Under the pieces are notes generated by a model. That model was not told the DNA's origin, ran no database searches, and saw nothing but the letters and a program-made list of their open reading frames with translations. Source: a virus (lineage: Duplodnaviria > Caudoviricetes). From it: a stretch of 53,037 nt of DNA. Location of the stretch: positions 1 through 53,037 of the IMG/VR virus record IMGVR_UViG_3300011338_000290; one strand, given 5' to 3'. Of the stretch, positions 1-51,941 are shown in pieces (the first letter of the stretch is position 1; each line of letters opens with the position of its first letter). A program made the position numbers and the translations under genes.

Positions 1-1
1 C

Positions 2-163
2 GAGCCTATTCCGTTTGCGGGCATAATAGCCATTGATGACCAAGAAGATTTAGAACAAATGTTACGACACCAGTTGCATATCGTTACTGAGCAATTAGCT
101 ACGGTACAAGCCGAGTGCCAACGACTACGAAATAAACTAAGAGAGGCGGGTATAAATGACTGA
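2..163 (+). CDS. Hypothetical protein, 5'-truncated by window edge
   Basis: Open frame EPIPFAG...LREAGIND* read manually; overlaps the next start by 8 nt. Confidence 0.6.
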   Translation, partial: EPIPFAGIIAIDDQEDLEQMLRHQLHIVTEQLATVQAECQRLRNKLREAGIND

Positions 164-365
164 AGAAGATAAAGGCATGCTACGTGATATATTTGCGGGC
201 TTGGCTATGAACGGATGGATTATTAACGGGGATTATTCTAAAGAAGAAATACCCCAAATGGCATATATCATGGCTGATGCCATGATGGAAACTAGAGATA
301 AAGGAGAAGAACTTGGAATTGCAGCAGTTAAACCTAGAAAGCGATATCTTAGAAAAGGTACTTGA
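156..365 (+). CDS. Conserved small phage protein
   Basis: LRDIFAGLAM...AYIMADAMM pattern common in phage hypotheticals; GAGG upstream. Confidence 0.7.
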   Translation: MTEEDKGMLRDIFAGLAMNGWIINGDYSKEEIPQMAYIMADAMMETRDKGEELGIAAVKPRKRYLRKGT

Positions 366-525
366 TCGTGGAAAGAAATATTGCTCGAGCTGTACTAGTT
401 ATAAGCCTGATATTGGTGGTCAAGTGCTTGTTGTTGGTAGTCGGCATAGACCAATTCGACGATGGAAGTGTGCTCACTGCCTAGCAAAGATTTCACAAGC
501 TAAATACTCATCAAAGAAAAAATAA
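313..525 (+). CDS. Small putative zinc-finger protein
   Basis: CSSC...CAHC pairs; TTG start preceded by AGGAG. Confidence 0.6.
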   Translation: MELQQLNLESDILEKVLDRGKKYCSSCTSYKPDIGGQVLVVGSRHRPIRRWKCAHCLAKISQAKYSSKKK

Positions 526-526
526 T

Positions 527-1198
527 ATGCCAGCATGGTCATACAGTAGTTTAAAAACATTTCAACAATGCCCGAAGAAGTATTACCATCTTAAGGTAGC
601 CAAGGATGTAAAGGATGATGGTAGTGAAGCTACTGTGTATGGCAAAGAGCTACATAAAGTTGCTGAGGACTACATCAAAGATGGCACACCCATCCCCCCA
701 CAGTTTGCGTTTATTCAAGATACAGTAGATGCGCTTAAGAGAATACCAGGTGAAAAGCATACTGAAATTGAACTAGGTGTATCTAATAAAGGTGGCAGAC
801 TTAATCCTTGTGGGTTCTACGATAAAGATGCGTGGTATCGGGGTATTGCTGACTTGCTGATTGTTAATGGCGACGAAGGCTACCTAGTGGATTACAAGAG
901 CAGTAAGAATGCAAAGTACGCTGACTTAAAACAGTTGGATTTACTAGCGGGTGCGGTATTTGCTCATTTCCCAGAACTTAAAACGCTTAAGTCTGCTTTG
1001 ATATTTGTAGTTAGTAATGAGTTTGTAAACAAAGAACACAGTTCAATGCACAAGATGGCTTACTTTGAGCATGTGCGATTTGATTTAGAACGGCTTGAAA
1101 CAGCCCTAAAAACGGGTGTATGGAACGCAGTAGCGGGTCCGTTGTGTGGGTGGTGTCCCGTCAAGACTTGTCATAATTATAGGGAGAGACGCAAATGA
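527..1198 (+). CDS. PD-(D/E)XK exonuclease, Cas4/RecB-like
   Basis: N-terminal SYSSL..FQQCP, GIADLL...VDYKS catalytic motifs, C-terminal CGWC..C (four-Cys Fe-S pattern). Confidence 0.85.
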   Translation: MPAWSYSSLKTFQQCPKKYYHLKVAKDVKDDGSEATVYGKELHKVAEDYIKDGTPIPPQFAFIQDTVDALKRIPGEKHTEIELGVSNKGGRLNPCGFYDKDAWYRGIADLLIVNGDEGYLVDYKSSKNAKYADLKQLDLLAGAVFAHFPELKTLKSALIFVVSNEFVNKEHSSMHKMAYFEHVRFDLERLETALKTGVWNAVAGPLCGWCPVKTCHNYRERRK

Positions 1199-1608
1199 GC
1201 TTCAGTAAAGGAGTTACAAAAGAAAAAGGAAAACAAACCCCAAAAGACGCTTGGGATTACATTAGGGGCGAACATGAAATATGCCATTGCTCTTACCCTA
1301 GTTGTCGTAATAGAAAAATAACTAGAGACCAAGATGCTGTGTCTTGGGACATAGTGCATATAGCAAAAGATCAATTTGAATTTAACTTATCCCCATTAGC
1401 AAAACTAGCAGTAGTTGCTAACCCAAAAATTACGGATAGGGGTGAAGAATGGGGAGATTATTTTGTTACTTTATCTATGCATGCGGAATGCGCTGCAGAA
1501 TGGGGTATGCACTTGATTAAAGACGCCCTTGAGAGCCATAATGTAGGGACTAAACTTCGTAAGGAAAAACCTCAAAATGCCATACGTGAACAAACCAAGA
1601 CCATATAA
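1195..1608 (+). CDS. Hypothetical protein, possibly metal-binding
   Basis: ATGA overlap with previous gene; CSYPSC and HAEC motifs. Confidence 0.6.
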   Translation: MSFSKGVTKEKGKQTPKDAWDYIRGEHEICHCSYPSCRNRKITRDQDAVSWDIVHIAKDQFEFNLSPLAKLAVVANPKITDRGEEWGDYFVTLSMHAECAAEWGMHLIKDALESHNVGTKLRKEKPQNAIREQTKTI

Positions 1609-1861
1609 AAAAGAATACGAACAGTATCAGGGTAAACCCGAACAAATAAAGAATAGGGCTAAACGTAACACAGCCCGTGCGGAGCTAATGAAAGAAGGAA
1701 AGGTACACAAGGGTGATGGAAAAGACGTCGATCATGCAAAACCTCTCAGCAAGGGGGGAACAAGTGCTAGGGGTAATCTCAAGGTTAAACCCGCTAGCAA
1801 GAACAGATCATTCAGTAGGAACTCAGACCACTCCGTCAAACGGAATGCAAGCAAGAAATAG
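1577..1861 (+). CDS. Small HNH-type endonuclease
   Basis: DVDHAKPLSKGG...GNL...N motif. Confidence 0.75.
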   Translation: MPYVNKPRPYKKEYEQYQGKPEQIKNRAKRNTARAELMKEGKVHKGDGKDVDHAKPLSKGGTSARGNLKVKPASKNRSFSRNSDHSVKRNASKK

Positions 1862-3239
1862 CATCCTAACGGATTACAACTGGCCTGGTAAACATAAGCC
1901 TTTTGCACACCAAAAGCAAACTTCTGAGTTCTTAACGCTTAACCGCAAGGCTTTCTGCTTTAACGAGCAGGGCACAGGTAAAACGGCTAGCGTAATATGG
2001 GCAGCTGACTACCTATTGAACCTAGGCGTTATCCGTCGTGTGCTTGTAATTTGCCCCTTATCTATTATGAGGTCGGCATGGCAACAGGACTTATTTAAGT
2101 TTGCGATTCACCGCACATGCGATATAGCCCATGGTAGCCCAGTACAACGCAAAAAAATACTTGCCAACAATGCTGAGTTTGTCATTATTAACTTTGATGG
2201 GGTAGACATCGTCAAAGAAGAAGTCCTAAAAGGTGGGTTTGACCTAATCGTAGTAGATGAGGCAAGTGCCTACAAAAATGCACAAACAACCCGTTGGAAG
2301 ACGCTCAGAGACATAGCCGCCCAAGTTAAGGGTATGTGGATGCTTACTGGTACTCCAGCAGCACAATCCCCCGTAGACGCATTTGGCCTCGCTAAGCTTA
2401 TTAATCCTAATAACACCCCTAAATTTTATGGTCAGTTCCGTGACCAAGTTATGTTCAAGGTAGGTACTTATCGTTGGATACCAAAACCCCAAGCCCAATC
2501 CGTTGTACATAAAGTGTTACAACCTGCTATTCGGTTTGAGAAAGATCAATGCCTAGACCTACCTGATGTAACTTTTGTAGAACGGGATGCCCCGCTTACC
2601 CCCCAGCAAATAAAGTATTACAAAATACTCAAACAACAAATGTTGATACATGCAGATGGAGAGCAAGTTACTTCAGTAAACGCAGCTACCAACATCAACA
2701 AGCTACTGCAGATCTCTGGCGGTGCGGTATATACCGATACTAAAGAAGTCATACAGTTTGACGTATCCAACCGCTTACGGGTTATTGAAGAGGTTATTAA
2801 CGAAGCTTCACATAAGGTCCTGGTGTTTGTTCCATTTACTCATACTATAGAACTACTAAGAACTTATTTAACCGCAGCTAATATTACTTGTGAAGTCATT
2901 AATGGGCAAGTGCCTGTAAATAAAAGGCACGACATAATCAAAGACTTCCAAGAGACCGATAACACTAGGGTCTTGATAATACAACCCCAAGCAGCATCTC
3001 ACGGGTTAACACTAACAGCTGCTAATGTAATCATTTGGTATGCTCCTGTGACTAGCGTGGAAACATACTTGCAAGCTAATGCACGTATTAACCGCCCGGG
3101 GCAGAAGAACCCCATGACCATTGTGCATATCAAAGGAAGTGAAGTAGAAGCAAAGCTATACAGAATGTTACAAAATAATATAGATAGCCACACAAAAATA
3201 ATTGACTTATATAGACAAGAAATTGAAGATATAGCTTGA
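1845..3239 (+). CDS. SNF2-family (SF2) helicase
   Basis: EQGTGKT Walker A, DEAS, LTGTP, HGLTLT, QANARINRPGQ; start moved from 1713 to ATG 1845 to avoid a long overlap with the HNH gene. Confidence 0.9.
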   Translation: MQARNSILTDYNWPGKHKPFAHQKQTSEFLTLNRKAFCFNEQGTGKTASVIWAADYLLNLGVIRRVLVICPLSIMRSAWQQDLFKFAIHRTCDIAHGSPVQRKKILANNAEFVIINFDGVDIVKEEVLKGGFDLIVVDEASAYKNAQTTRWKTLRDIAAQVKGMWMLTGTPAAQSPVDAFGLAKLINPNNTPKFYGQFRDQVMFKVGTYRWIPKPQAQSVVHKVLQPAIRFEKDQCLDLPDVTFVERDAPLTPQQIKYYKILKQQMLIHADGEQVTSVNAATNINKLLQISGGAVYTDTKEVIQFDVSNRLRVIEEVINEASHKVLVFVPFTHTIELLRTYLTAANITCEVINGQVPVNKRHDIIKDFQETDNTRVLIIQPQAASHGLTLTAANVIIWYAPVTSVETYLQANARINRPGQKNPMTIVHIKGSEVEAKLYRMLQNNIDSHTKIIDLYRQEIEDIA

Positions 3240-3263
3240 CATTGTCAAAGTCATTGGTATACT
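3236..3263 (+). promoter_or_regulatory. Sigma70-type promoter with palindrome over the -35
   Basis: TTGACA-16-TATACT with TGn extended -10; TTGACATTGTCAA palindrome at 3236-3248. Confidence 0.75.
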
Positions 3264-3291
3264 AGTGGTTCGTAGTTAGAAGGAGCTAAAA

Positions 3292-3699
3292 ATGAGTGAT
3301 GTAGAAGTTATAGCAACAGACAAGCTTGCCGAGATTTATATAAAGATTAGAGACAAGCGAGCTGAGCTAAAGGAGAAGTTCGAGCAACAAGATGAAGAGC
3401 TCAAGGCTCAACAAGACTTGCTTGCAGAAAAAATGCTTGACGTATGTCGTGATAACAATGCTGACAGCATCAAGACACCAGCAGGGACAATTATTCGTAA
3501 AGTGGATACACGGTACTGGACGACTGATTGGGATTCTATGTATCAGTTCATACAAGAACATGATGCCTACCCCCTGCTCGAGAAAAGATTGCATCAAACC
3601 AATCTTAAGCAGTTTCTCGAAGAGAATCCAAATCTGTTACCTGCTGGTTTACAAGCAGACAGTAAATACACCGTGGTCGTTAGAAGGAGCAAAGCATGA
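3292..3699 (+). CDS. Conserved phage replication-module protein (coiled-coil N-terminus)
   Basis: Strong RBS GAAGGAG; coiled coil followed by KTPAGT...DWDSMYQFI...LLEKR pattern. Confidence 0.7.
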   Translation: MSDVEVIATDKLAEIYIKIRDKRAELKEKFEQQDEELKAQQDLLAEKMLDVCRDNNADSIKTPAGTIIRKVDTRYWTTDWDSMYQFIQEHDAYPLLEKRLHQTNLKQFLEENPNLLPAGLQADSKYTVVVRRSKA

Positions 3700-4571
3700 G
3701 TAATATTTCTATTTTTCAGCAACAAAACTCAGTAGCAACTAATCGTGAGGTTAGTGAATTATCTAAAGCCCTAGCGGATAGTGGGGGCGGTACTAGTCGT
3801 CGTATCACCATGGCTAAGGGTGTATTTCGTAGGATCGTAAACGGCAAAGAAGCTGGTAAGGTTAAAGATGGTTTCCTAAATGTCATCATTATTAATGCAC
3901 TACCAAAAGTATCTCGTCAGTTCTACGCTACTGCGTTTGACCCTGATGCAGCCCCAACTCTACCTGACTGCTGGTCTAATTTAGGTGATGTACCTGATCC
4001 CAAAGCCGCTAACGCTCAGTCCACAAGTTGCGCTACCTGCCCACAAAACATTGATGGTTCTGGTACTAATGGCAAAGGTCGTGCATGCCGATTCAATCGT
4101 CGTATTGCCTTGTTGCTTGAAAACGATATGAGTGGTGACATCTACCAATTTAATATTCCTGCCAAGTCTTTATTTGGTAAGGGTGTTGGTAATACGCATC
4201 CGTTTGAGAGTTACACTAAGTTTTTGCCAGCCAATGGCGAGAGCATTGATCGCATCATTACTCAGATTAGCTTTGATGAGAATGAGACCGCTGATGTGCT
4301 GAAGTTTACCCCCGTGCGTCATTTGACCGACGAAGAGATTGATGTAGTCGAAGCAGCTCAAGCTACTCAAGAGTCCAAGCGGGTTATTCAGTTGACTGTA
4401 GCTCAGCAAGACGGTGTTGTTAAGTTGCCACCAGCAGCTAAAGCAGTTCCTGAAGCCGAGGCTGAAGTAGTTGAAGAGCCTGTTGTTAAACGAGCTAAGA
4501 AAGCTGAAGTGCCTCCCGCTGCACCTAAAGCAAAGTTAGCAGATGTCGTTAACGCTTGGTCGGATAACTAA
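3696..4571 (+). CDS. Putative ssDNA-binding/annealing protein with Cys cluster
   Basis: PDCWS..CATCPQN..GRACR motif, Ala/Pro/Lys-rich flexible tail, position in replication module. Confidence 0.55.
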   Translation: MSNISIFQQQNSVATNREVSELSKALADSGGGTSRRITMAKGVFRRIVNGKEAGKVKDGFLNVIIINALPKVSRQFYATAFDPDAAPTLPDCWSNLGDVPDPKAANAQSTSCATCPQNIDGSGTNGKGRACRFNRRIALLLENDMSGDIYQFNIPAKSLFGKGVGNTHPFESYTKFLPANGESIDRIITQISFDENETADVLKFTPVRHLTDEEIDVVEAAQATQESKRVIQLTVAQQDGVVKLPPAAKAVPEAEAEVVEEPVVKRAKKAEVPPAAPKAKLADVVNAWSDN

Positions 4572-4573
4572 TA

Positions 4574-4810
4574 ATGAGCTACGGCTATAGTGCTAAAACT
4601 ATAGAGCTTAACAAGAAAGCTGGTAATACTAGGCTTGGGGTTGCGCTGGGTAGAGCTGCAATAAAAAAGGGTGTATCGGTTGCTGATATAGCAGAGATGT
4701 TAAATGTTAGTCGGCAGACGGTATACAACTGGTTTATTGGGGCATACGATCCTAAGCCGGAGCTATCTAAAAGTATCACCAAGCTTATAGCTAATAGACT
4801 TAGTAAGTAA
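4574..4810 (+). CDS. Cro/CI-type helix-turn-helix DNA-binding protein
   Basis: SVADIAEMLNVSRQTVYNWFIG HTH. Confidence 0.85.
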   Translation: MSYGYSAKTIELNKKAGNTRLGVALGRAAIKKGVSVADIAEMLNVSRQTVYNWFIGAYDPKPELSKSITKLIANRLSK

Positions 4811-4832
4811 TAAAAAGCATCACCGGAAGGTG

Positions 4833-4857
4833 AGGGGGGATTAGTCCCCCCTTTTTT
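4833..4857 (+). terminator. Rho-independent terminator
   Basis: AGGGGGGA-TTAG-TCCCCCCT then T-tract. Confidence 0.75.
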
Positions 4858-4878
4858 CCCCCTAACAACGAGACGAGA

Positions 4879-7719
4879 ATGGCAAATATAGACCTACTAA
4901 ACAGAGTGCAAAGCCCCAATGGGTGGCTGACCGTGCTCGGCTTAAAAGGTAAATCTGCTATACAAGAGCTTGTTCAAACACGAGAAGAATTCGATAAGCA
5001 CGTAGAAGACTTTCTGTCTAAGGGCAGAGATGTTTATTTTGGTGTCGCTAAGTTTGAGACCGACTTAAACCGCAAGAAAGAGAATGTAAAAGACCTCAAA
5101 GCATTTTGGCTTGACTTGGATTGTGGTGAAGCAAAAGCAGAAGTAAATCCAAAAACAAACCGCCCCGATGGTTATATTGACCAAGTAGCAGGTCTTCAAG
5201 CTCTACAAGATTTCTGCAAATTAATCGGATTACCCAAGCCTTTACTTGTTAATTCAGGTAGGGGCATCCATGCGTACTGGCCTCTTACTAAACCTATTAC
5301 TCGGGAAGAATGGGAACCAGTTGCTAATCGTTTGAACGAACTATGCGTATTGCATAACCTTTATGTCGATGCAAGTGTATTTGAGATAGCCCGAGTGCTT
5401 AGAGTGCCCGGAACATTAAACTTTAAAGATAATCCACCTAAACCAGTAGAAGTAATTTCAGATGCACCCGATGTAGATTACGAGGCATTTAAGAACCTTT
5501 TGGGTGTTAAAGAAGCACCAAAGAAACCTACTGCACCCAAAGAGTTAAGTGAGTTACAAAAAGCCATGGCTGCTAATACCGTATCTCGGTTTAGCAAAAT
5601 TATGATTCGCAGTGCAAATGGCGAAGGGTGCGCACAATTACTGTATCAGTATCAAAATCAAGAGTCTGTATCCGAACCTATGTGGTTCAATGCGTTATCC
5701 ATTGCACACCGATGCGTGGACAGAGAGACTGCAATCCATAAGATTTCAGAGAATCACCCTGAATATTCACCCGAGAATACGGAGGAAAAAGCAAGCCATA
5801 CAGCGTTTGCTCAGCGTTGCAGTACGTTTGAGAAAAATAACCCAGGTGGTTGTGAAGGTTGCCAATGGAAGGGACGCATCGGTTCTCCTATTGCATTAGG
5901 CAGAGAAATAGTTAAAGCAGAAGATACAGAAGTCCACGACACACAAGAGATAGAAGATGCGGTTACATACAAAATACCTTCTTTCCCGTTCCCATACTTC
6001 CGTGGGAAGAACGGTGGCATCTACATCACTATTAAAGATGAAGAGGAATCAGAACCAATTTGTGTATACGAACACGATTTGTATGTTGTAAAGCGTATGC
6101 ACGATCCAGACCCTGCGGTTGGAGAACTTGTATTACTACGTTTGCATTTACCTAAAGACGGTGTGCGGGAGTTTACGATTCCGCTTTCTACCGTAGCAGT
6201 AAAAGAAAGATTACGTGAAGCGTTGTCAACAAAAGGCGTCGCTGGGATGCCAAAGCAGATGGATCAGTTGATGGCGTTTTTAATGTTATTTATTAAAGAG
6301 TTGCAATATAAAGGAAGGGCAGAATTAATGAGGACACAATTTGGCTGGGTGGATAAGAACAGCAAGTTTATTATTGGCGATAGAGAGATTAGCAAAGACG
6401 GCACATTCCACAGCCCACCTTCTGCAAACACAAGGCAGTTCACCGAAGTTATGCACCCCATGGGTACGCTAGAGAAATGGAAGGAAGTGTTTAATCTGTA
6501 TGGCGCCCCTGGATTAGAACCCCATGCGTTTGCTGCGCTTACTGCGTTTGGCGCGCCGCTTCTTAAGTTTACTGGTCATAGCGGAGCAATCATAAACCTG
6601 ATTCACAAAGAGTCAGGCACAGGTAAATCTACTGCTTTGTATATGTGTAATAGCGTGTACGGACACCCTGATAGGCTAGCTGGAATTTGGAAAGACACCC
6701 TAGCCGCCAAGATGTTGCATATAGGCATTATGAATAACCTGCCGTTTACGATTGATGAGATTACCAACATTAGCCCTGCCGAGTTTTCTACGCTGGCTTA
6801 TAGCATGTCACAAGGTCGTGGTGCTAATAGGTCTAGGTCAGATAAAAACGAGATGCGTATTAACAACACCACTTGGCAGACCATATCGTTGGCTAGTTCA
6901 AACGCTAGTTTCTACGAGAAGTTAGGGGTGCACAAGAACAGTCCGGATGGTGAGAGCATGCGCCTATTAGAGTATCAGATACATCCAAGCAATATTATCC
7001 CTGTACATGTGGCTAAGGAGATGTTCGACCACCAACTTAAAGAAAATTATGGGCATGCTGGGGACATCTATTGCAGTTACTTAGTTAATAACTTAGAAGA
7101 TACGGTCAGCAACTTGTTGGCTATCCAGCAGAAGATTGATAAAGAGATGCGCCTAACCAGCAAAGAGCGTTTTTGGTCTGCTGCTATTGCTTGTAATATT
7201 ACAGGCGGTTTGGTTGCCCGTATGCTTGGGTTGCATGACTACGATATGAAGGCTATTTATGCTTGGTCTATGCAGATGCTTTCCACAGTACGGCAAGACA
7301 TCGCACCTCCAGCTAATAACGCCGCAGCTATTATTGGTGACTACATTAACCGTAATATTCAAAATATGTTGGTTGTAAACAACGAAGTAGACAAGCGTAC
7401 TAATATGCACTCGGCACCCGTACAGGAGCCAAGAGGCGAGCTAAGGATACGCTACGAACCCGATACTAAGATGATGTACATCGTAGCCAAAGACTTTAAA
7501 AAGGATTGTGTGGAGTCACAAGCCCCATACAAAGAGACTCTTAACGAGCTAAAAGCTCGAGGTGTTTACACAAAAGCCGATACTAAGCAGATGTCCAAAG
7601 GCATGCGTGTTACATCTCCGGGGGTGCATGCATTGTTTTTTGACTGCTCTGTGCCTGATTTTATTGACATGGATGCGGTCGTAGCGCCGATTATCGAAAA
7701 TGTTAGTAGAGAAGATTAG
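4879..7719 (+). CDS. Primase-helicase (AEP/RepB-like primase fused to DUF927-type helicase)
   Basis: WLDLDC, SGRGIHAYW, RVLRVPGT primase motifs; Cys cluster; ESGTGKST Walker A and TIDE Walker B. Confidence 0.85.
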   Translation: MANIDLLNRVQSPNGWLTVLGLKGKSAIQELVQTREEFDKHVEDFLSKGRDVYFGVAKFETDLNRKKENVKDLKAFWLDLDCGEAKAEVNPKTNRPDGYIDQVAGLQALQDFCKLIGLPKPLLVNSGRGIHAYWPLTKPITREEWEPVANRLNELCVLHNLYVDASVFEIARVLRVPGTLNFKDNPPKPVEVISDAPDVDYEAFKNLLGVKEAPKKPTAPKELSELQKAMAANTVSRFSKIMIRSANGEGCAQLLYQYQNQESVSEPMWFNALSIAHRCVDRETAIHKISENHPEYSPENTEEKASHTAFAQRCSTFEKNNPGGCEGCQWKGRIGSPIALGREIVKAEDTEVHDTQEIEDAVTYKIPSFPFPYFRGKNGGIYITIKDEEESEPICVYEHDLYVVKRMHDPDPAVGELVLLRLHLPKDGVREFTIPLSTVAVKERLREALSTKGVAGMPKQMDQLMAFLMLFIKELQYKGRAELMRTQFGWVDKNSKFIIGDREISKDGTFHSPPSANTRQFTEVMHPMGTLEKWKEVFNLYGAPGLEPHAFAALTAFGAPLLKFTGHSGAIINLIHKESGTGKSTALYMCNSVYGHPDRLAGIWKDTLAAKMLHIGIMNNLPFTIDEITNISPAEFSTLAYSMSQGRGANRSRSDKNEMRINNTTWQTISLASSNASFYEKLGVHKNSPDGESMRLLEYQIHPSNIIPVHVAKEMFDHQLKENYGHAGDIYCSYLVNNLEDTVSNLLAIQQKIDKEMRLTSKERFWSAAIACNITGGLVARMLGLHDYDMKAIYAWSMQMLSTVRQDIAPPANNAAAIIGDYINRNIQNMLVVNNEVDKRTNMHSAPVQEPRGELRIRYEPDTKMMYIVAKDFKKDCVESQAPYKETLNELKARGVYTKADTKQMSKGMRVTSPGVHALFFDCSVPDFIDMDAVVAPIIENVSRED

Positions 7720-7894
7720 TTATAACGTCAACTGGAAAAACTTTAAGACAGGGTATTCAATCTTCATACCTTGCCTTGATCCTGACGTTGCTAAGAAAGA
7801 CATTCTGCGTGTTACAAAAAGACTGAAGATGGAAGTTTTGTTTAAAGTAGTAATAGAAGAAGGTGTAAAAGGTTTACGCATCTGGAGAATTTAA
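7700..7894 (+). CDS. Small conserved phage protein
   Basis: SIFIPCLD...GLRIWRI pattern; overlaps end of primase gene. Confidence 0.7.
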   Translation: MLVEKISYNVNWKNFKTGYSIFIPCLDPDVAKKDILRVTKRLKMEVLFKVVIEEGVKGLRIWRI

Positions 7895-7901
7895 CTATAC
7901 T
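7873..7901 (+). promoter_or_regulatory. Putative sigma70 promoter for a small RNA
   Basis: TTTACG-17-TATACT. Confidence 0.55.
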
Positions 7902-7905
7902 CGAG

Positions 7906-7985
7906 CACAGAACAGCTCGTCTGTTTCTCCTCGGAAGTTAGCTCCTTCCACACTCTTTGCCCCCGCCTCGTGCGGGGGTTTTTTA
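7906..7985 (+). ncRNA. Candidate three-hairpin small regulatory RNA
   Basis: Lies between the promoter and terminator; no ORF; hairpins with CTCGT and TTAGCTC loops; two CTCCT anti-SD tracts. Confidence 0.45.
7959..7985 (+). terminator. Rho-independent terminator at the convergence of replication and late operons
   Basis: CCCCCGC-CTCGT-GCGGGGG then T-tract. Confidence 0.85.
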
Positions 7986-10900
7986 TTTGTACTGCGGAGA
8001 ACGAGTGCCTTCTACTAATGGGTAGACAAATGGAGCTTCTTTATCTGAGACAGATAACCCTTGATATGCTTTGCCACGACGCTCAGCACGAGACTGCAAC
8101 GACTTACTAACTGTTTCACCATTAATGGCTAGCATTGCATTCTTAGTATTAAATTTATCTATTTCTTCTAATATCTTGTCAATCTTGTCGTCATCATCCT
8201 GACGCACTGCAATATCTAAACGATTTAATATATTTTGTTTTTCTCTGTTTATCTCTGTCACTATCTGTTTAGCCATAAAGTTAGCCTTTTGTACTTGCGC
8301 CACTTCGGTGCTTCCAAAGCCTAAAGTTTGTGCAAGCAGTTTGCCTGTTGTGTAGAACTCTGGGTTCATCAACTCATCACCTTTAGTAGTAGTTGCGCCT
8401 TCGCTCTTTAGCCTCATTGAGGTTAAACCACCTCTAAGCCACGCTGGAGAAAGTTTTTCAAAAGCCCTACTAACCTGCCCATTATTCCAATCGTCGTAAG
8501 CACCTGCAAAATTTGCACCCACGCTACCAATTGGACCAGTCCAACTAAACGCAAAGTTTATAAATGCTTGACGAGAAGTTTCTGCAGGAGCATCACTTCT
8601 AAACCACAACCCATCTAAAGAAGTAGAAGTACCTACGTTTAAATCGGTATAAGCAGATATTGGACCCATTTCAACACCACGAGATAACGTAGCAGCTTGC
8701 TCTTCAGTTAAGTTAAAGAAGTTAGCTAGACTGCTATCGGGACCAAAGTAGCTAGGAATAAACGAATTTCTAAACCATAAGTCTAAGCTGCGTTTACCAA
8801 GGGGATTACCTTCGTCGTCTTCGTCGTAGTCTTCGTCTTCTTCATCTCGAAGTAGTTCACGCATACCTTCTGCCATACCCATAATAAAGCTATATAAAGG
8901 GAAACCTGTAACACCAGCAAATAGACCAGTCATACCCAGTGTGCCAAAGAACTTAATAGCCGCTTCTTTCTTTTCTTCTTTATTCAATAATGGCAGCATG
9001 CCGTAGAAGTTACGTACTAAATACGATGTCATCTGTAGCGGGTAGGTCAAGAACTGGAATGCTAAGCGTCCAGCAGCACTCTTCATTGGGGGCGGTTTGT
9101 TGTATTGAGTGTAGTTAAATAAAGCATCGTAGGTTAGCTTTAGGGCTCTTTTAGTAGCTGCATCAAACGCAGCCTTGTCGTCCATACCCTTTTGCTTTGC
9201 GTCTGCGTAAGCTAGTTCAAAACTGGACATGAACATAATTTCACGAGAAATACGCTCAGCGTGGTGGAATGCGCCACCCATTAAATTAAATGTAAACCTA
9301 GTCCCTCTTTCTACTAAACCTTGATAACGAGTACTGGGGGCTGCAGCCATTGCCGTCATATCCCCTGCATAGGTAGACATAAATATATCTTTGTCATTGG
9401 CAAAGTTCCAAGCGTCTTTTAGTACTTTTCTGTACGCTAAATTTTTGTGTTCGTTTACGTACTTAGAGTCATTAATAGATGGCTGACCCCACGAAGTTAC
9501 TACGTTTCCGTTCTCGTCTTTTTTAGTTGTGCCAAATTTATTCCATAAAGCACCATACCTAGCAGCAGTTGCAGTAGCTTTGCCAATACCAAACTCAGCC
9601 CCAAGGGTAGGTAAGCCAACAATCGGTAGCTGGGTCATCTGTACTAATGCAGATTTAGGAGAAGTCAGAAGCCAATAGAACACAAACTTATTACCAATGG
9701 AAGCAACTTGATCCCAATCAAGCCCTTCTTCAGGCACTGTGGGAGTAATTTCATTAATAGCTCGGTTACTAACTTCTCTAATAATAGTAGCTAGCTTTAG
9801 CTTATCCGGATTTTGCTGTATCTCTGCATATGCAGCAGCTATGCCATTGCGAATCTTATCTGAGTACTTTAGTCGAGCTAGCTGATTAGCAGCGGTATGC
9901 TGGCTAACAATAAAGTTGCGGATTGCATCGGCACTAAAACCAGTCTTGCCTTGGCGGTGTACAAACTTACGACGGATGTCCTTATCTGGTAGAGTCATCA
10001 AGTACATTTGATAGATATTGTCTTTAACAGCATCAATATCCGACATCTTGTTTTTATCTAACATTGCAAAGATTTCTTTAAGCATATCGCTAGATTCAAT
10101 ATGTTTTTCTCTTAGTTTGCGAATGTCATTTCCAATATCTATGTCGCCATCGGCAATCATCTGGTCTTTAGTACGCTTGTCCCCAGCTTTATTAAGTTCA
10201 GCAACACGGGCTTCAATGGCGTTGTTACGAGCAACTTCCCCTTCAAACATATAGAACTCGCCACTCTTGCCCTTGCCTACGCTAAACCAGAAGTTACCAT
10301 AACGCATTAATGGGAAATAAACCTCAAGTTGTTTAGCTTCTTGGAAAGTTTTAGTAATAGCCGCAATTAATTTGCCTTTTGGAGTAGACGCATCGTTAAT
10401 ATCTCCAGGTACGTTAGAAGCCGCAATCTTTTCTTTTAGCAATTGCTCATGCGTGTCAAAGGTTTTTTTGTAGCTATCTTTAGCCATCTTATATATGGCA
10501 TGCCCTTCGCCTTTTCCAAATTTACCTAACTGCTCCCAACCACCCATGGTGTATTTCTCACCAGTAACAGGGTTGTTATAAGCGCCGCCTTCATACACTA
10601 ATTTAATTGCTGCAGTGCGCTCAGTTCTTTGTTTTTTAAGGTTAGGTAAAGTTTTAGGGTCCGTAGACGGATTAAGAATGTCATTTTCAATGCGCTGTAA
10701 CTTAGGATCATTCTTTATAGCGGTTGCCGCATCGGGGTGTTTAGTAGGGTCTACCTCTAACAAAGTAGATGCGTTAATTAAATCCGCAAGTATATTGCCG
10801 CCTTCTTCGTATTTTTCATTAAAGTTAATCCAAGCAGGAGTTTTTTCAGCAAGCTCACGGATCATTTGCACCCGCATGCCAGCCATGTCGTCTACAGCGT

Positions 10901-13900
10901 TGTTAATGACTTTTAGGTTATTAATTTTGTCCCCAGCTATGCGGGTAATGTCTTCTGTTGTAAAAGCTTTTAACGCAAGCTTTAATTTGGTAACACTTAT
11001 AGCACCATAAATAGCCTTCATCAAACGAATAGCATCGCTGGCATTTCTAACCTGCATTATTAACTCGCCAATTGAACCGTTTAATGTGGAGTTTCTATTA
11101 GATAATCGAATCTTTCTAAGCAAAGTTTCTACAAGTTTTAATTGCTTAGGTGGTTTAGGTGCTTTTGGCGGTGCAGGTTGTTTTGCTTTGGCTGCTACTG
11201 GTTCCCCAGGAACCGTTACTTCTGGCATTGGTGCAGCTAGCAGCTTATTTGTAACAATAATCAAATCTTGGAGAGCAGAAGTATGCTTCTCGTCCATACT
11301 AAACAACTGACGTATGCTTTGTACAAATTTATTAAATAGCCTATCAACAAAATTAGGCGGAGCACCTGCAAGTACACCTGGAGAAAGAAGTAAAAATTCT
11401 TGCATAGCAGGCAAAGACATGCCGTAAGCCACAAACTCTTTAACGTCAGTAAAAGCGTCATTAGGTATTTCTAGCATTTCTGGGGTGAGTAAACCTAAAT
11501 TGCCAGTCTCCAAAGCTTGAGCAAAGAGAGCATCATAGTTATCTTTTGCCCGTATCATCAAAGCCATAAGCTCTGCCACTGGACGCAAAGAATTAGGAAT
11601 AGGTTTCTTTGCTTCTCTTAATTCTAGATAGGCATTAATACGGGCAACGGTTGCAGCGTGTAAAGCTTCGTGTAACACAACAGTATTGTTAATACCGCCG
11701 CTACGCATTACATAAATAGTATTTCTGTCAGGTACATATAAACCTGCTGCTCCCATCATTTTGTCTCGTAGGAATGCAGTAGGCATATCGTCTGCACTAT
11801 CTACTACAACAAACTTAACTCCGTTAAGGAAAGGGAGTAACCGTCTAGCTAGTATTTTTTCAAAGGGGTTGCCGTTATTAGCAATCCAACTTACTGCGCT
11901 TCGTGCGTTATTGTATTTTTCAAAGACAGTGTTATCCTGCCCATTAGTAGATTCTGACATTTGGGCACGGCTAGGTGCGCCTATTCTTTGCTTAGCCTCG
12001 TATCTTAGTTTACCTAACTCACGTTCTTGCGGGTCAGCTTTCTCTAATGCTGCAGTTGCTCTAGTACCTGCGGTTTTTTTCTTTTGGTTGGGGTCAACGG
12101 ATAAACCATATGCAACCGATAGAGCATCTATGCGTTCTTGCCTTAAACCATACAAAATATCCTGAGCTTCTTTCTCACTGGCAGAGCGTTCAAGAATAGC
12201 GGCTTCGTCAACTGTTTGAGCTAAAGTTTTTTCGGCTTTAGCAATTGCATTGATAGCATCCCGTCCAGAAGCTATTTGCTGTTTTTTAGTCGCAGCGGCA
12301 GCGGCTATTTGTTCTGGAGTTTTTGCAGCGGCTGGTCTGCCACGAGGTTTGCCTGTTTTGACTGGTGGTGTTGTTACATCCTCGGTAGCTTCTGTATCAA
12401 CAGGGAGTTTGTCATATATTGTCTTAAACTTTTCACCTGTTAATTCCTCAAAACGTTTAGCTCTTCTTGGCTCACTTTCTCTTAAAAAAGCATCTAACTC
12501 AGCTCTAATTTTATCTACCTTTAATTTTGTTGGGCGATTAGGATAAGTGTCTTGTGACTTTCTTTCTGCTCTCTCAGCATCAGCTAGTCTTCGTTTTATC
12601 TTGTTAAGTGTTTGTAAATCTTCTTCCGCAGTAGGCTCTACAGAAGTAGTGGTAGGTGCACCCATACCAGCCGCAACTTGTTTTTGCCGTAAGCTTTCTG
12701 TAGCGGCAGCGGTTGCTTGCTCGTCGGTTAAGTTGTATTTAACTTTTAAGTCTGCAGCTAGTGTATTGAGTTCAGTTCCTTCTCCGCCTCCAACAGCAGT
12801 AGTAGTTGTGCCAGCTGCTGCCAGGTCTCCTCCGGTAGTGTCAATAGCTCCCGTGTCGGTTTCGCTTGGTTTGCCAGGCACAGAAACGCCTGGTTGATCT
12901 GCTCCACCGATAGTTGATTCAGTTCCATCTAATAGCCCTCCTTGCAAAATAGCATCGCCTGCAACGGCGTAGGCTTCTTGTTCAGTATATGGTTGATTTG
13001 TATCTGGATTAACTGAAGCCTTTAGCTTCTCAACAGTCTCATTAAACTGCTGACCTAAATTGTCTAAAGCACCAGGGGCATTAAGCTTATCAAGGATTTT
13101 CTTTTGATCTTCAACGGCTTTAGCTTCTGCTTCTCTTTTAGCAATTGTAGATGGCAAGCGCTCATAAGCCTCACGTCCACCAAATGCTGCTGTCTCTAAT
13201 AAACTAGTTGGACCTTCACCAACGGCTTCCATAAGGACTTGCCCAGGCTTTTTAATCTCTCCTTCGGTAGCAAGTTGAGCAGCTGCTTCACCACCAGCTC
13301 CGCTAATTACTTGTGCGGCGGGTTGGGCTACACCGATATTGACCGCTTCTTTTGCTACTTGGTTCTTTATTACTGTCTTAGGCACAAGCAATTTACCAGC
13401 TAATCCAGCAGCAGCCGTATCTACAGCGCCAATAATAGAAGCCCTTGTCATTGCATGCTCGTAAGCTTTAGCAAATAAAGTTGGATCATTTAACGCTTTA
13501 TTAACAGCGGCAGGGTCTTTTACATTTACCCCTTGCTCTTGGAAGTATTCTGTAATACCCGAAGATAACTCACTAGCAAAGCTAGTACTACCCATAGCCA
13601 TTGCACCAACTCTAGGATTACGGGTTACTGCGCCTAATACAAGTGCAGGTACTAGTTGTGGGACGCTCTCTAAGGACACGCTAGCCATGACACCCAAAGG
13701 ATCAACTTGGAACGCATCAAATGCTTGCCGTGCCGTCTTTACATCAGACAAAGCTTCTATCGTAGGTCTTTTTCTATATTGAGCAGCTTCAGCCTGGGTC
13801 TCCATTAGCTTTTGTTGAGATTGAGCTTGAGCGCCCTGTAACTCTTTAAGTCTAGCTTCTGCCGCTTCTGGTGTTAGTGGTCTGCCAAGAGGGTCTGTAG

Positions 13901-14330
13901 CCTTACCTTCTCGGATTAAATTGATTTCGTTTTGAATGTTGGCAACTTGAACACCAGGCAATATTCCTTTTGCAGCTGCATAGCCAGACTTTAACGGGTC
14001 AGTTATACGTTGTAAGAACGGTACTTCTCTTTCGTACTTTGCAGTCTCTTCTGCTAATTGTTTCTTTTGTTGCTCAGTTAACCCTGTGCTTGGTTGTACT
14101 GTAGGTTCAGCTTGGGTTGTTACTTCTTCTGGGCTAAGTATGGGTGCAGTTACAGAAGCAGGGGCGGCTTTAGGTTTATCTTTAGAAAGAAGATGAGTCA
14201 ATATCTCAGTATCAGGAACGCCTGCTTCCCTAGCCCCAGCTAAGTTGTACTTGTATTTTGAGGCAAGATAATTGTTAATCTCAGCATCGCTAAGACCCGC
14301 CTTTCTTGCGCCCTCAACATCATATGCCAT
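7983..14330 (-). CDS. Giant internal virion/DNA-ejection protein (polyvalent type) with zincin-like HExxH domain
   Basis: 2115 aa; last late gene; VVLHEALHAAT motif with downstream EFVAY; duplicated N-terminal Y.(V/L).GAR.AG..D.EI motif. Confidence 0.7.
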   Translation of the reverse strand: MAYDVEGARKAGLSDAEINNYLASKYKYNLAGAREAGVPDTEILTHLLSKDKPKAAPASVTAPILSPEEVTTQAEPTVQPSTGLTEQQKKQLAEETAKYEREVPFLQRITDPLKSGYAAAKGILPGVQVANIQNEINLIREGKATDPLGRPLTPEAAEARLKELQGAQAQSQQKLMETQAEAAQYRKRPTIEALSDVKTARQAFDAFQVDPLGVMASVSLESVPQLVPALVLGAVTRNPRVGAMAMGSTSFASELSSGITEYFQEQGVNVKDPAAVNKALNDPTLFAKAYEHAMTRASIIGAVDTAAAGLAGKLLVPKTVIKNQVAKEAVNIGVAQPAAQVISGAGGEAAAQLATEGEIKKPGQVLMEAVGEGPTSLLETAAFGGREAYERLPSTIAKREAEAKAVEDQKKILDKLNAPGALDNLGQQFNETVEKLKASVNPDTNQPYTEQEAYAVAGDAILQGGLLDGTESTIGGADQPGVSVPGKPSETDTGAIDTTGGDLAAAGTTTTAVGGGEGTELNTLAADLKVKYNLTDEQATAAATESLRQKQVAAGMGAPTTTSVEPTAEEDLQTLNKIKRRLADAERAERKSQDTYPNRPTKLKVDKIRAELDAFLRESEPRRAKRFEELTGEKFKTIYDKLPVDTEATEDVTTPPVKTGKPRGRPAAAKTPEQIAAAAATKKQQIASGRDAINAIAKAEKTLAQTVDEAAILERSASEKEAQDILYGLRQERIDALSVAYGLSVDPNQKKKTAGTRATAALEKADPQERELGKLRYEAKQRIGAPSRAQMSESTNGQDNTVFEKYNNARSAVSWIANNGNPFEKILARRLLPFLNGVKFVVVDSADDMPTAFLRDKMMGAAGLYVPDRNTIYVMRSGGINNTVVLHEALHAATVARINAYLELREAKKPIPNSLRPVAELMALMIRAKDNYDALFAQALETGNLGLLTPEMLEIPNDAFTDVKEFVAYGMSLPAMQEFLLLSPGVLAGAPPNFVDRLFNKFVQSIRQLFSMDEKHTSALQDLIIVTNKLLAAPMPEVTVPGEPVAAKAKQPAPPKAPKPPKQLKLVETLLRKIRLSNRNSTLNGSIGELIMQVRNASDAIRLMKAIYGAISVTKLKLALKAFTTEDITRIAGDKINNLKVINNAVDDMAGMRVQMIRELAEKTPAWINFNEKYEEGGNILADLINASTLLEVDPTKHPDAATAIKNDPKLQRIENDILNPSTDPKTLPNLKKQRTERTAAIKLVYEGGAYNNPVTGEKYTMGGWEQLGKFGKGEGHAIYKMAKDSYKKTFDTHEQLLKEKIAASNVPGDINDASTPKGKLIAAITKTFQEAKQLEVYFPLMRYGNFWFSVGKGKSGEFYMFEGEVARNNAIEARVAELNKAGDKRTKDQMIADGDIDIGNDIRKLREKHIESSDMLKEIFAMLDKNKMSDIDAVKDNIYQMYLMTLPDKDIRRKFVHRQGKTGFSADAIRNFIVSQHTAANQLARLKYSDKIRNGIAAAYAEIQQNPDKLKLATIIREVSNRAINEITPTVPEEGLDWDQVASIGNKFVFYWLLTSPKSALVQMTQLPIVGLPTLGAEFGIGKATATAARYGALWNKFGTTKKDENGNVVTSWGQPSINDSKYVNEHKNLAYRKVLKDAWNFANDKDIFMSTYAGDMTAMAAAPSTRYQGLVERGTRFTFNLMGGAFHHAERISREIMFMSSFELAYADAKQKGMDDKAAFDAATKRALKLTYDALFNYTQYNKPPPMKSAAGRLAFQFLTYPLQMTSYLVRNFYGMLPLLNKEEKKEAAIKFFGTLGMTGLFAGVTGFPLYSFIMGMAEGMRELLRDEEDEDYDEDDEGNPLGKRSLDLWFRNSFIPSYFGPDSSLANFFNLTEEQAATLSRGVEMGPISAYTDLNVGTSTSLDGLWFRSDAPAETSRQAFINFAFSWTGPIGSVGANFAGAYDDWNNGQVSRAFEKLSPAWLRGGLTSMRLKSEGATTTKGDELMNPEFYTTGKLLAQTLGFGSTEVAQVQKANFMAKQIVTEINREKQNILNRLDIAVRQDDDDKIDKILEEIDKFNTKNAMLAINGETVSKSLQSRAERRGKAYQGLSVSDKEAPFVYPLVEGTRSPQYK

Positions 14331-48795: not shown

Positions 48796-48825
48796 AATAT
48801 AACACAACAAAAATAAAAGGAGCAA
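48796..48825 (-). promoter_or_regulatory. Putative late-operon promoter
   Basis: TTGCTC-18-TATATT with TGTGT before the -10, as in the early promoters. Confidence 0.5.
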
Positions 48826-48916
48826 TAGGTGGGGTACTTGCGGGCCTAGATATGTGAAGCCAAATCCGCTTTCCCCCGTGCTCACGTGAAGAGCAAGAAA
48901 ATTATATTTGAAAAAT

Positions 48917-48934
48917 ATACCCCCCGGGGGGTAT
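48917..48934. repeat. Perfect 18-bp palindrome
   Basis: ATACCCCCCGGGGGGTAT. Confidence 0.9.
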
Positions 48935-48965
48935 TGAAATAAAAAAGGTAAGGGGGGTGTTTCTG

Positions 48966-48981
48966 TGTTCCACGTGGAACA
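48966..48981. promoter_or_regulatory. parS: Chromosomal-type parS site
   Basis: TGTTCCACGTGGAACA, perfect 16-bp palindrome matching the bacterial ParB-binding consensus. Confidence 0.8.
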
Positions 48982-49202
48982 AAACTTGTGGATATTTAAG
49001 TAGGGGGAGGGGGGTTAAGCTACGGTAGACGTATGAGAACGGGGAAAGTGAGGGTGAAATTTTAAAGTTGTGTATCTCTTGTGCAAATTAGTGAGTATAG
49101 GTGGACTAACAATCCTTTTTTTAATTTTGGGGTGGTGGGGTCGCATGGCTCGCCACGTCCTAACATTGTTAGGGGTAGGGGGTATTTATAGTTTCCATAG
49201 AG

Positions 49203-49232
49203 TTGAAAATGTAACACAAAATGCTGTATAAT
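49203..49232 (+). promoter_or_regulatory. Early sigma70 promoter
   Basis: TTGAAA-18-TATAAT. Confidence 0.7.
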
Positions 49233-49240
49233 AAACTCAA

Positions 49241-49360
49241 GCAAGCGAAATCTTGCGAGGGCTTCAAGGGTTGAACTAGGTGGGGATCGAATCCCACGTG
49301 ACTTGCGAAGTGACCGCTTTGACCTAGGGGGTGACAGCCCTAGCGAGTGCGAAGTCAGCC
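49241..49360 (+). ncRNA. Candidate structured leader/small RNA
   Basis: Five consecutive short hairpins between the promoter and the first early ORF. Confidence 0.45.
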
Positions 49361-49397
49361 AGTAGTTTTCTTTTAACTTTCTTTCTAAGGAATAATC

Positions 49398-51758: not shown

Positions 51759-51776
51759 TTCTGCCCAACCCCAACC

Positions 51777-51800
51777 AACCCTGCTACGGCAGGGTTTTTT
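51777..51800 (+). terminator. Rho-independent terminator
   Basis: AACCCTGC-TACG-GCAGGGTT then T-tract. Confidence 0.9.
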
Positions 51801-51941
51801 ATTTGCCCACGACCTAACAATGTTAGGTCAGACTTTTTGTCATTCGGCTCTCGCCGAAATGACAGTTCCGAGAAGGGTGGTAGCCCATGGGGAATTCCCT
51901 AAAAGTGCGTGGGAACGAGGGTTCAATTCTAGCCAAAAAAC

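What the first reader, a model, noticed from the sequence alone, without database searches (positions are those of the whole stretch)
7873..7985. Unannotated small RNA complementary to the phage's own translation starts
Seen: promoter TTTACG-17-TATACT, then about 80 nt with no ORF that folds into three hairpins (ACAG-CTCGT-CTGT; GGAAG-TTAGCTC-CTTCC; a terminator whose loop is again CTCGT). TTAGCTCCTTC (7938-7948) is the exact reverse complement of the RBS GAAGGAGCTAA (3279-3289) and matches 8 nt of the 3696 gene's RBS. CTCGTCT (7916-7922) is complementary to AGACGAG (4871-4877), 1 nt before the primase ATG. Established: P1 C4 and P4 CI are phage antisense RNAs. Inference: a trans-acting RNA that shuts down replication genes. 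Caveat: anti-SD matches are partly generic and also fit several late RBSs.
Basis: partly seen in the sequence, partly recalled or inferred. Interest (0 to 1): 0.72.

Follow-up and report, generated by a model that had tools for sequence, protein, structure and literature searches.

The report
Phage small RNA pairing own RBS
A short non-coding RNA gene at the end of a phage's replication genes carries a sequence that matches, and has co-evolved with, the ribosome-binding site of the phage's own early operon, so it most likely turns that operon's translation down.

Summary
All quoted motifs sit at the stated coordinates, in an 88-nt gap between convergent genes. Within the window alone the evidence is weak. 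The promoter match is 9 of 12, no better than shuffles. An 11-nt match to some start site is reached by 8 of 300 shuffled RNAs.

Relatives decide it. In IMG/VR phages, 95 of 100 distinct contexts keep a TAnnnT box just after the small-ORF stop plus a terminator. The box and hairpin 2 are more conserved than second codon positions. The CU-rich seed tracks the ribosome-binding site of the gene-3292 homologue. Over 143 distinct pairs, the summed cognate match is 1159 against 942.8 ± 15.8 when permuted (0 of 5000), with 24 distinct matched segments of 10-15 nt. A control start site shows no excess.

Best reading: a roughly 79-nt base-pairing RNA that blocks translation of the early operon headed by 3292. 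The links to 3696 and primase are weak. Expression, the transcript's 5' end and the direction of regulation are untested. No Rfam family reaches threshold. I class it as a new family of a known kind.

The parts
7873..7878 (+). -35-like hexamer TTTACG, inside the last codons of the 64-aa ORF
   Evidence: Its conservation cannot be separated from the conserved Gly-Leu-Arg codons. The best -35 match is 4 of 6 in only 46 of 95 distinct contexts.
7896..7901 (+). -10 box TATACT, 1 nt after the stop codon in the window
   Evidence: T, A, A and T are invariant across 43 sequences. Mean majority fraction is 0.98, against 0.65 at third codon positions. A TAnnnT box plus terminator is present in 95 of 100 distinct contexts, and 69 of these have the same offset.
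7907..7985 (+). Predicted small RNA of about 79 nt. The 5' end is inferred from the -10 box. The 3' end is in the U-run.
   Evidence: Inference. Covariance model R1 scores 101.2 bits here, and the next hit in the window scores 16.5 bits.
7910..7926 (+). Hairpin 1 (GAACAG / CUGUUU, loop CUCGU). The stem sequence varies among relatives.
   Evidence: Different stems occupy the same place in relatives, such as AACAAC/GUUGUU, AGCAGA/UCUGCU, AUGCAG/CUGCAU and GUAGGUC/GACCUAC. The hairpin is absent in L046 and L048.
7927..7932 (+). CU-rich single-stranded linker CUCCUC, a second anti-SD-like motif
   Evidence: Majority fraction 0.88.
7933..7949 (+). Hairpin 2: GGAAG-UUAGCUC-CUUCC
   Evidence: One pair changes G-C to U-A in 3 sequences. 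Majority fraction 0.96.
7938..7948 (+). Seed UUAGCUCCUUC, spanning the loop and 3' arm of hairpin 2
   Evidence: It co-varies with the target RBS.
7959..7985 (+). Intrinsic terminator: 8-bp GC stem, loop CUCGU and a U-run
   Evidence: The closing pair appears as CG, AU, UA and GC in relatives.
3279..3289 (+). Main predicted target: the SD region GAAGGAGCUAA of gene 3292
   Evidence: It is the longest match (11 nt) among 74 start regions and ranks second by duplex energy at -23.7 kcal/mol. Co-variation is shown.
3236..3263 (+). Promoter of the target operon: TTGACA-16-TATACT with a TG motif, and the palindrome TTGACA-T-TGTCAA over the -35
   Evidence: 11 of 12, the best in 1-8100. It is conserved in relatives.
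3683..3690 (+). Weak candidate target: GAAGGAGC in the RBS of gene 3696
   Evidence: The cognate excess is small, 6.25 against 5.89. In L062 and L064 the RBS at this position carries the 10-nt match.
4871..4877 (+). Weak candidate target: AGACGAG before the primase ATG, complementary to the hairpin-1 loop
   Evidence: Cognate sum is 159 against 140.8 ± 4.9. L027 has 10 nt and L063 has 8 nt, but L011, L014, L018 and L057 have only 4-5 nt.

Best explanation
Window 7907-7985 (+) encodes a small base-pairing regulatory RNA of about 79 nt. It lies at the 3' end of the primase/small-ORF transcription unit. It most likely has its own sigma-70-type promoter, whose -10 box TATACT sits 1 nt after the small-ORF stop, and it ends at an intrinsic terminator. 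Its CU-rich seed UUAGCUCCUUC is displayed in the loop and 3' arm of a weak hairpin. The seed pairs with the Shine-Dalgarno region of gene 3292 (GAAGGAGCUAA). Gene 3292 is the first gene behind the strong promoter at 3236-3263. Pairing would occlude the ribosome-binding site and lower translation of that early operon, which contains a Gam/Gp157-like gene, gene 3696 and an HTH gene. Weaker contacts with the 3696 RBS and the primase start region are possible. Shown: the anatomy, the conservation and the seed-target co-variation. Inferred: transcription from the box, repression as the outcome, and a role as a feedback or timing device.
For: Anatomy is shown. The noncoding parts are conserved above coding constraint: the -10 box scores 0.98 and hairpin 2 scores 0.96, against 0.92 and 0.65 for codon positions 2 and 3. 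95 of 100 distinct contexts in relatives have the box plus a terminator, and 84 of those carry CTCC between them. Model R1 finds the element at the same place and on the same strand in 38 of 63 further sources, and finds no second strong copy in the window.

For seed versus the RBS of the 3292 homologue, I examined 143 distinct pairs. The longest Watson-Crick match averages 8.10 for cognate pairs and 6.58 for non-cognate pairs. The cognate sum is 1159 against 942.8 ± 15.8 permuted, and 0 of 5000 permutations reach it. 57 of 143 pairs have 10 nt or more, in 24 different matched segments, including one where the SD core itself changes (GGAA with UUCC). With seed and SD anchored independently of each other, 253 of 360 flank cells pair, against 243.9 ± 3.4 (20 of 5000 shuffles reach this). 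There are 2-3 Watson-Crick pair types at five positions.

The best complementary hit anywhere in a locus of about 10 kb, on either strand, falls on that start region in 43 of 143 pairs. The negative-control start region (gene 4574) shows no excess, 5.01 against 5.20. Where another gene heads the operon (L085-L087), the match moves to that gene's RBS. In two relatives' records, the only other copy of the clade-specific 10-mer is the RBS of a homologous DUF3310 gene on the early strand.
Against: There is no expression data. No run on record as RNA holds the region, and the runs I laid are probably DNA contigs. The in-window promoter match is ordinary, and the -35 lies in coding sequence. 70 of 143 distinct pairs have 7 nt or less, mostly a large clade whose RNA has only a generic CUCUCCUU motif. 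L046 and L048 have a seed change without the matching RBS change. Five distinct contexts lack the box-plus-terminator pattern, among them L073 and L080 with no element at all. A test for G·U tolerance, which would prove RNA-level pairing, was inconclusive: the mean gain is 0.43 with G·U and 0.85 with A·C. Start codons of the homologues were called by a heuristic. The sequences are phylogenetically related, so permutation counts are not probabilities.
Confidence: 0.72

Rival explanations
1. There is no separate RNA. The element acts only as the 3' untranslated end of the long primase operon mRNA. It pairs in cis or in trans with the 5' leader of the early operon, a long-range 5'-3' interaction like the one I recall for icaR mRNA of Staphylococcus aureus. 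Alternatively it is released by processing rather than made from its own promoter.
For: The terminator at 7959-7985 is the only one after primase, so any transcript through primase carries the seed. The in-window promoter score is ordinary. The co-variation supports pairing whichever transcript carries the seed.
Against: The TAnnnT box is nearly invariant in noncoding DNA at a fixed offset from the stop codon. It uses the same hexamer variants as the clear promoter of gene 3292. A terminator at 4834-4850 separates the 3292 operon from primase, so the leader and the 3' end are often not on one molecule.
Confidence: 0.13
2. The element is an ordinary 3' end and terminator. The complementarity is the generic fit of any CU-rich stretch to SD sequences.
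For: 12 of 74 start regions carry AAGGAG. 8 of 300 shuffled RNAs reach 11 nt. A large clade shows only 4-7 nt at this RBS.
Against: The matched bases extend beyond the SD and change together in 24 distinct versions. 0 of 5000 permutations reach the observed sum, and the control start region shows no excess. Hairpin 2 is more conserved than coding positions.
Confidence: 0.04
3. The two sites are a DNA-level inverted repeat that bounds the 4.6-kb module 3279-7948. They are read by a protein, such as a recombinase or a regulator, rather than by RNA pairing.
For: An inverted repeat would co-vary in the same way. Homology between relatives often stops right after the terminator, suggesting a module boundary. 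The G·U test did not favour RNA.
Against: One copy always covers an SD at the right distance from a start codon. The other always lies between a -10 box and a terminator, on the strand that makes it antisense. The match moves with the first RBS of the operon, and a third copy lies at another RBS. No recombinase was seen among the genes scanned.
Confidence: 0.05
4. The RNA acts mainly on host messages or on the ribosome, as a general SD sponge or 16S 3'-end mimic. The phage RBS match is secondary.
For: The seed contains CUCCUU, as the 16S 3' end does (my recall). Clades with only a generic CU motif still keep the RNA.
Against: The clade-specific extensions match phage RBSs. The host is unknown, so no host target could be tested.
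Confidence: 0.04

Closest known systems
c4 antisense RNA of phages P1 and P7
   Same: It is a phage-encoded small RNA that binds complementary regions around the ribosome-binding site of the phage's own mRNA and blocks translation. The complementary bases are thought to lie in loops, and specificity differences underlie P1/P7 heteroimmunity (passages of the review PMC12197685 read).
   Different: There is no sequence or structure match: no Rfam family reaches threshold in the window. Here the RNA gene lies 4.6 kb downstream of its target, at the 3' end of another transcription unit, with a putative promoter of its own. The target is a Gam-like early operon, not an antirepressor. An immunity role is not shown.
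MmgR / SuhB (Rfam RF00519, the alpha-r8 family of alpha-proteobacteria)
   Same: It has about the same size (77 nt), an anti-SD motif and a terminal Rho-independent terminator. MmgR is described as an Hfq-dependent trans-sRNA with three stem-loops and an anti-SD motif (passage of PMC7143759 read). It is the best Rfam hit here, covering the full model length 1-77.
   Different: The score of 35.2 bits is below the gathering score of 41. None of 15 relatives reaches the gathering score. Of 8 diverse relatives, only L137 shows the family at E ≤ 1, at 29 bits. The element is phage-borne, and the host is unknown.
3'UTR-derived sRNAs with an internal promoter (DapZ and MicL type; from my recall, not from a call)
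   Same: The RNA shares the terminator of the upstream mRNA, the promoter overlaps the end of the upstream coding sequence, and a seed targets an RBS in trans.
   Different: Those are bacterial and Hfq-dependent and have host regulons. Here the element is in a phage and the co-varying target is the phage's own operon.
icaR 3'UTR-5'UTR pairing in Staphylococcus aureus (from my recall)
   Same: An anti-SD motif in a 3' end pairs with the SD of a leader.
   Different: That interaction is within one monocistronic mRNA. Here the leader and the 3' end are separated by 4.6 kb and an internal terminator.

Membership tests
Rfam RF00519 (suhB/MmgR) | Covariance-model score at or above the curated gathering score (41 bits) | tested here: not met
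   35.2 bits in the window. 0 of 15 relatives reach gathering. 1 of 8 relatives shows the family at E ≤ 1, at 29 bits.
Rfam RF00519 (suhB/MmgR) | Chromosomal gene of alpha-proteobacteria | tested here: not met
   The window is a virus record. The only cellular-genome relative is one 8-kb contig of a MAG labelled Actinomycetota.
Any curated Rfam family, including phage antisense RNAs | Match at the gathering score anywhere in the window | tested here: not met
   0 matches in 53,037 bases.
Phage antisense RNA acting on the phage's own RBS (c4-like, by mechanism) | Complementarity to the RBS of a phage gene, maintained in evolution | tested here: met
   11 nt in the window. The cognate excess is reached by 0 of 5000 permutations, with 24 matched versions. 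Compensatory pair types are shown.
Phage antisense RNA acting on the phage's own RBS (c4-like, by mechanism) | Translation of the target is repressed by the RNA | not testable with these tools
   This needs a reporter or infection experiment.
Trans-encoded base-pairing sRNA | Own promoter | tested here: inconclusive
   The -10 box is conserved in 95 of 100 distinct contexts at a fixed offset, with majority fraction 0.98. However, the match is only 9 of 12, the -35 is confounded with coding sequence, and no 5' end is mapped.
Trans-encoded base-pairing sRNA | Rho-independent terminator at the 3' end | tested here: met
   Compensatory changes in the stem are shown.
Trans-encoded base-pairing sRNA | A discrete stable transcript | not testable with these tools
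   No holder on record as RNA. The laid runs are probably DNA contigs.
Trans-encoded base-pairing sRNA | Chaperone (Hfq or ProQ) dependence | not testable with these tools
   The host is unknown.

The most novel reading that the evidence does not exclude
The seed and the operon-leader RBS form a diversifying RNA specificity code. The at least 24 matched versions would be heteroimmunity types. A resident or co-infecting phage would use its RNA to silence the early operon of an incoming relative that carries the same type. Competition between relatives would drive seed and RBS to change together, as proposed for P1/P7 c4, but here across a large family of uncultured phages.
Probability: 0.15. 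Interest if true: 0.8.

Novelty: new member of a known kind. Interest (0 to 1): 0.6.

Why it matters
Few phage small RNAs are known to regulate phage genes in trans, and most of those come from a handful of model coliphages. Here, sequence comparison alone gives an RNA gene, its likely target and a natural series of compensatory seed/RBS variants. These come from well over a hundred uncultured phage contigs. That makes the pairing directly testable with reporter fusions. It also offers ready-made orthogonal RNA/RBS pairs and shows how to annotate such genes in viral metagenomes. If the variants prove to be specificity types, the family would be a new example of RNA-based immunity or competition between related phages.

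Tried and rejected
Nucleotide searches of the phage collection found nothing, in near and distant modes. The closest cultured relative by primase protein is Pseudomonas phage Rollin at 30.7% identity. It has no intergenic gap at the corresponding place and gave no R1 hit, so it is no model for this RNA.

Rfam gave no family at gathering score. The sub-threshold RF00519 hit was followed up and rejected as membership.

On expression, no RNA holder was listed. The four runs laid are labelled 'probably DNA'. They are contigs of relatives at 85-95% likeness that cover the whole stretch. This says nothing about expression.

On the host, one scan of cellular genomes gave a single 8-kb contig from a MAG labelled Actinomycetota. 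That is too weak to name a host. No integrase or repressor was recognised among the genes scanned, so lifestyle is open.

The G·U versus A·C tolerance test, meant to prove RNA-level pairing, was inconclusive.

Hairpin 1 could not be given a formal covariation count, because MAFFT does not align its 5' arm in register. I report only that different stems occupy the same place. I did not use the count of structure pairs for the intermolecular pairs, because that would have needed joined sequences. I counted the pairs in scripts instead.

My first automated cognate test had wrongly picked start codons and truncated RNAs. It is superseded. The 'reduced set' figure was selected on cognate match and is therefore biased. 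I rely on the full set of 143.

The second R1 hit in the window (51718-51803, 16.5 bits) is just another terminator after an ORF. No homologue of the DUF3310 gene of relatives was found in the window. Pfam and PDB sequence searches did not identify gene 3696. No structure prediction or complex prediction was run.

Two literature searches (listings and abstract starts only) showed no description of this family.

Full report
Where it lies. The window is a 53,037-nt virus record with estimated completeness 84. Genes run on the + strand to 7894, on the - strand from 7983 to 49406, and on the + strand again after that. The finding fills the 88-nt gap between two convergent stops. One belongs to a 64-aa ORF (7700-7894) that overlaps the end of a 946-aa DUF927 primase/helicase (4879-7719). 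The other belongs to a 2115-aa DarB-like ORF on the other strand (7983-14330).

Check of the observation. All quoted strings are at the stated places, and the 11-mer pair 3279-3289 / 7938-7948 is unique in the window. The simple scan reports TTTACG-17-TATACT at 7873-7901, and a terminator with 8 pairs (7 G-C) followed by a T-run at 7959-7979. RNA 7908-7985 folds into three hairpins at -25.4 kcal/mol, z = -2.63. Seen alone, this is not beyond chance. There are 15 promoter-like sites in 1-8100 against 16.5 expected. 8 of 300 shuffled RNAs reach an 11-nt match with one of 74 start regions. Three of those 74 regions carry GGAGCTA: 3292, 27081 and 33533.

Relatives. Nucleotide searches of cultured phages gave nothing. 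The primase protein, however, recovered hundreds of IMG/VR contigs, with 326, 260, 425 and 311 confirmed stretches in four scans and the best 80 of each kept. Nucleotide homology to 7700-8100 runs through the terminator and often stops there.

In the alignment of 45 distinct sequences, the noncoding parts are the most conserved. The -10 box scores 0.98, hairpin 2 scores 0.96 and the U-run scores 0.94. Codon positions 1, 2 and 3 of the small ORF score 0.81, 0.92 and 0.65, and the sequence after the terminator scores 0.52.

Over all loci with enough sequence, 95 of 100 distinct contexts have a TAnnnT box within a few bases of the stop plus a downstream terminator. The hexamers are TATACT in 51, TAAACT in 19 and TAGACT in 7, and 69 share one offset. 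84 of the 95 have CTCC in between. The same hexamer variants serve as the -10 of the unmistakable promoter in front of gene 3292.

RNAalifold keeps hairpin 2 and the terminator, with compensatory changes in 5 of 12 pairs. Hairpin 1 differs in sequence between clades but is present in most. A covariance model built from 35 sequences scores 101.2 bits in the window. It finds the element at the homologous place on the + strand in 38 of 63 further sources.

The target. Gene 3292 is the first gene behind TTGACA-16-TATACT, an 11-of-12 match with TG, at 3236-3263. Its SD region is the 11-nt partner of the seed. In relatives, seed and RBS change together. Examples:
- UUUGCUCCUUC with GAAGGAGCAAA (L065)
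- AGUUUGCUCCUU with AAGGAGCAAACU (L081)
- GCUAGCUCCUUA with UAAGGAGCUAGC (L045, L070)
- CUAUCUCCUUG with CAAGGAGAUAG (L096)
- GUUAGCUCCUUCGU with ACGAAGGAGCUAAC (L092)
- UUUCUCCUUGGUUG with CAACCAAGGAGAAA (L163)
- a 15-nt pair in L218
- UUUUUCCUUG with CAAGGAAAAA in L176, where the SD core itself changed

I examined 143 distinct pairs of RNA body and start region. The cognate longest match averages 8.10 nt against 6.58 for non-cognate pairs. The sum is 1159 against 942.8 ± 15.8 after permutation, and none of 5000 permutations reaches it. 57 pairs have 10 nt or more, in 24 different matched segments. 16 have 8-9 nt and 70 have 7 nt or less.

When seed and SD are anchored independently of each other in the window's wider clade (36 distinct states), 253 of 360 flanking cells pair, against 243.9 ± 3.4 (20 of 5000 shuffles reach this). 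Two or three Watson-Crick pair types occur at five positions.

The best complementary hit in the whole locus, on either strand, lies on this start region in 43 of 143 pairs. The start region of gene 4574, used as a control, shows no excess: 5.01 against 5.20.

In L085-L087 a lipoprotein-like gene has been inserted at the head of the operon, and it is that gene's RBS which carries the 12-13-nt match. In L062 and L064 the match sits on the second cistron's RBS. I searched three relatives' records for the clade-specific 10-mer. Each showed the RNA gene and the 3292-homologue RBS. Two showed one further copy, at the RBS of a homologous DUF3310 gene on the early strand. None showed a late-strand copy.

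Weaker claims. The 3696 RBS gives 8 nt in the window and only a small cognate excess, 6.25 against 5.89. The hairpin-1 loop and the primase start region give 7 nt in the window, 10 nt in L027 and 8 nt in L063. The cognate sum is 159 against 140.8 ± 4.9. However, the pairing drops to 4-5 nt in near relatives L011, L014, L018 and L057. I treat both as possible secondary contacts.

Exceptions. A large clade keeps the box, a hairpin, a CUCUCCUU-type motif and the terminator but has only 4-7 nt at this RBS. L055 and L056 have a C-rich RNA without CUCC. L049, L073, L078 and L080 lack the element. L046 and L048 changed the seed without the matching change in this RBS.

Mechanism. The seed sits in the loop and 3' arm of a 5-bp hairpin, or in larger loops in other clades. 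That placement suits loop-initiated pairing. Pairing covers the SD 2 nt from the start codon, so the expected outcome is exclusion of the ribosome and lower translation of the operon. This follows from established knowledge of RBS-occluding sRNAs and is not shown here.

Any transcript through primase ends at the same terminator. The seed would therefore also be present on the long mRNA, so a purely 3'-UTR-borne or processed form cannot be excluded. The terminator at 4834-4850 makes a single-molecule 5'-3' contact less likely. A G·U tolerance test did not discriminate RNA-level from DNA-level complementarity. The strand assignment rests on the orientation of the box, the U-run and the target.

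Comparison with known systems. By mechanism the closest is the c4 RNA of P1 and P7. By architecture the closest is MmgR/SuhB, the best but sub-threshold Rfam hit. By gene position it resembles 3'UTR-derived sRNAs with internal promoters (my recall). It is not a member of any curated Rfam family, and two literature searches showed no description of it.

Verdict. This is a real, conserved, previously undescribed family of phage small RNAs of a known mechanistic kind. It has unusually clear comparative evidence for its target and no experimental evidence yet.

Noticed in passing
window 3236-3248: The -35 of the gene-3292 promoter lies in a perfect palindrome TTGACA-T-TGTCAA, kept as TTGAC-N3-GTCAA in many relatives. 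It looks like an operator. The small HTH protein of the same operon (4574-4810) is a candidate binder.
   Followed up: partly
window 4834-4860: An intrinsic terminator (GGGGGG-ATTAG-CCCCCC plus a T-run) sits between the HTH gene and primase. Primase expression therefore needs read-through or another promoter. The primase start has only a weak purine-rich SD.
   Followed up: no
window 7986-7990 and relatives: Nucleotide homology between many relatives ends within a few bases after the RNA's terminator. Downstream, the C-terminal part of the large - strand gene differs, which suggests a mosaic (recombination) junction.
   Followed up: no
L275:90-656 (-) and L276:55-611 (-): In two relatives' records, the only other copy of the clade-specific seed complement is the RBS of a homologous gene of about 180 aa with an HTH-like N-terminus and a DUF3310 domain. 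The two proteins share 35% identity (E = 2e-26). No homologue was found in the window.
   Followed up: partly
L085:2354, L086:2218, L087:1282: A lipoprotein-like 84-aa gene with a signal peptide and lipobox is inserted at the head of the early operon. It carries the 12-13-nt match to the RNA seed in place of the 3292 homologue.
   Followed up: partly
window 7983-14330 (-): The 2115-aa protein has a C-terminal 770 residues that match DarB-like antirestriction families (phrog_10089, E = 8e-70). Its transcript, if not terminated, would run antisense through the RNA gene.
   Followed up: no
window 51718-51803 (+): There is a weak hit of the covariance model (16.5 bits). It is another intrinsic terminator (CCCUGC-UACG-GCAGGG plus a U-run) right after ORF 51243-51758, not a second copy of the RNA.
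   Followed up: yes
window 48798-49397: A stretch of about 600 nt without a convincing gene lies between the divergent late and early modules. It has G/C runs and palindromes, for example CCCCCCGGGGGG near 48915. It could be a control or origin region.
   Followed up: no
L055, L056 (after the small ORF): These relatives keep the TATACT box and the terminator, but the RNA between them is C-rich (GCCCCUUGCCCCCC) and lacks CUCC. It may be a different seed type.
   Followed up: no
L155: The only relative in cellular genomes is an 8.3-kb contig binned into a MAG labelled Actinomycetota. It also carries the RNA, with a 10-nt match to its 3292-homologue RBS. This is a weak clue to the host.
   Followed up: no
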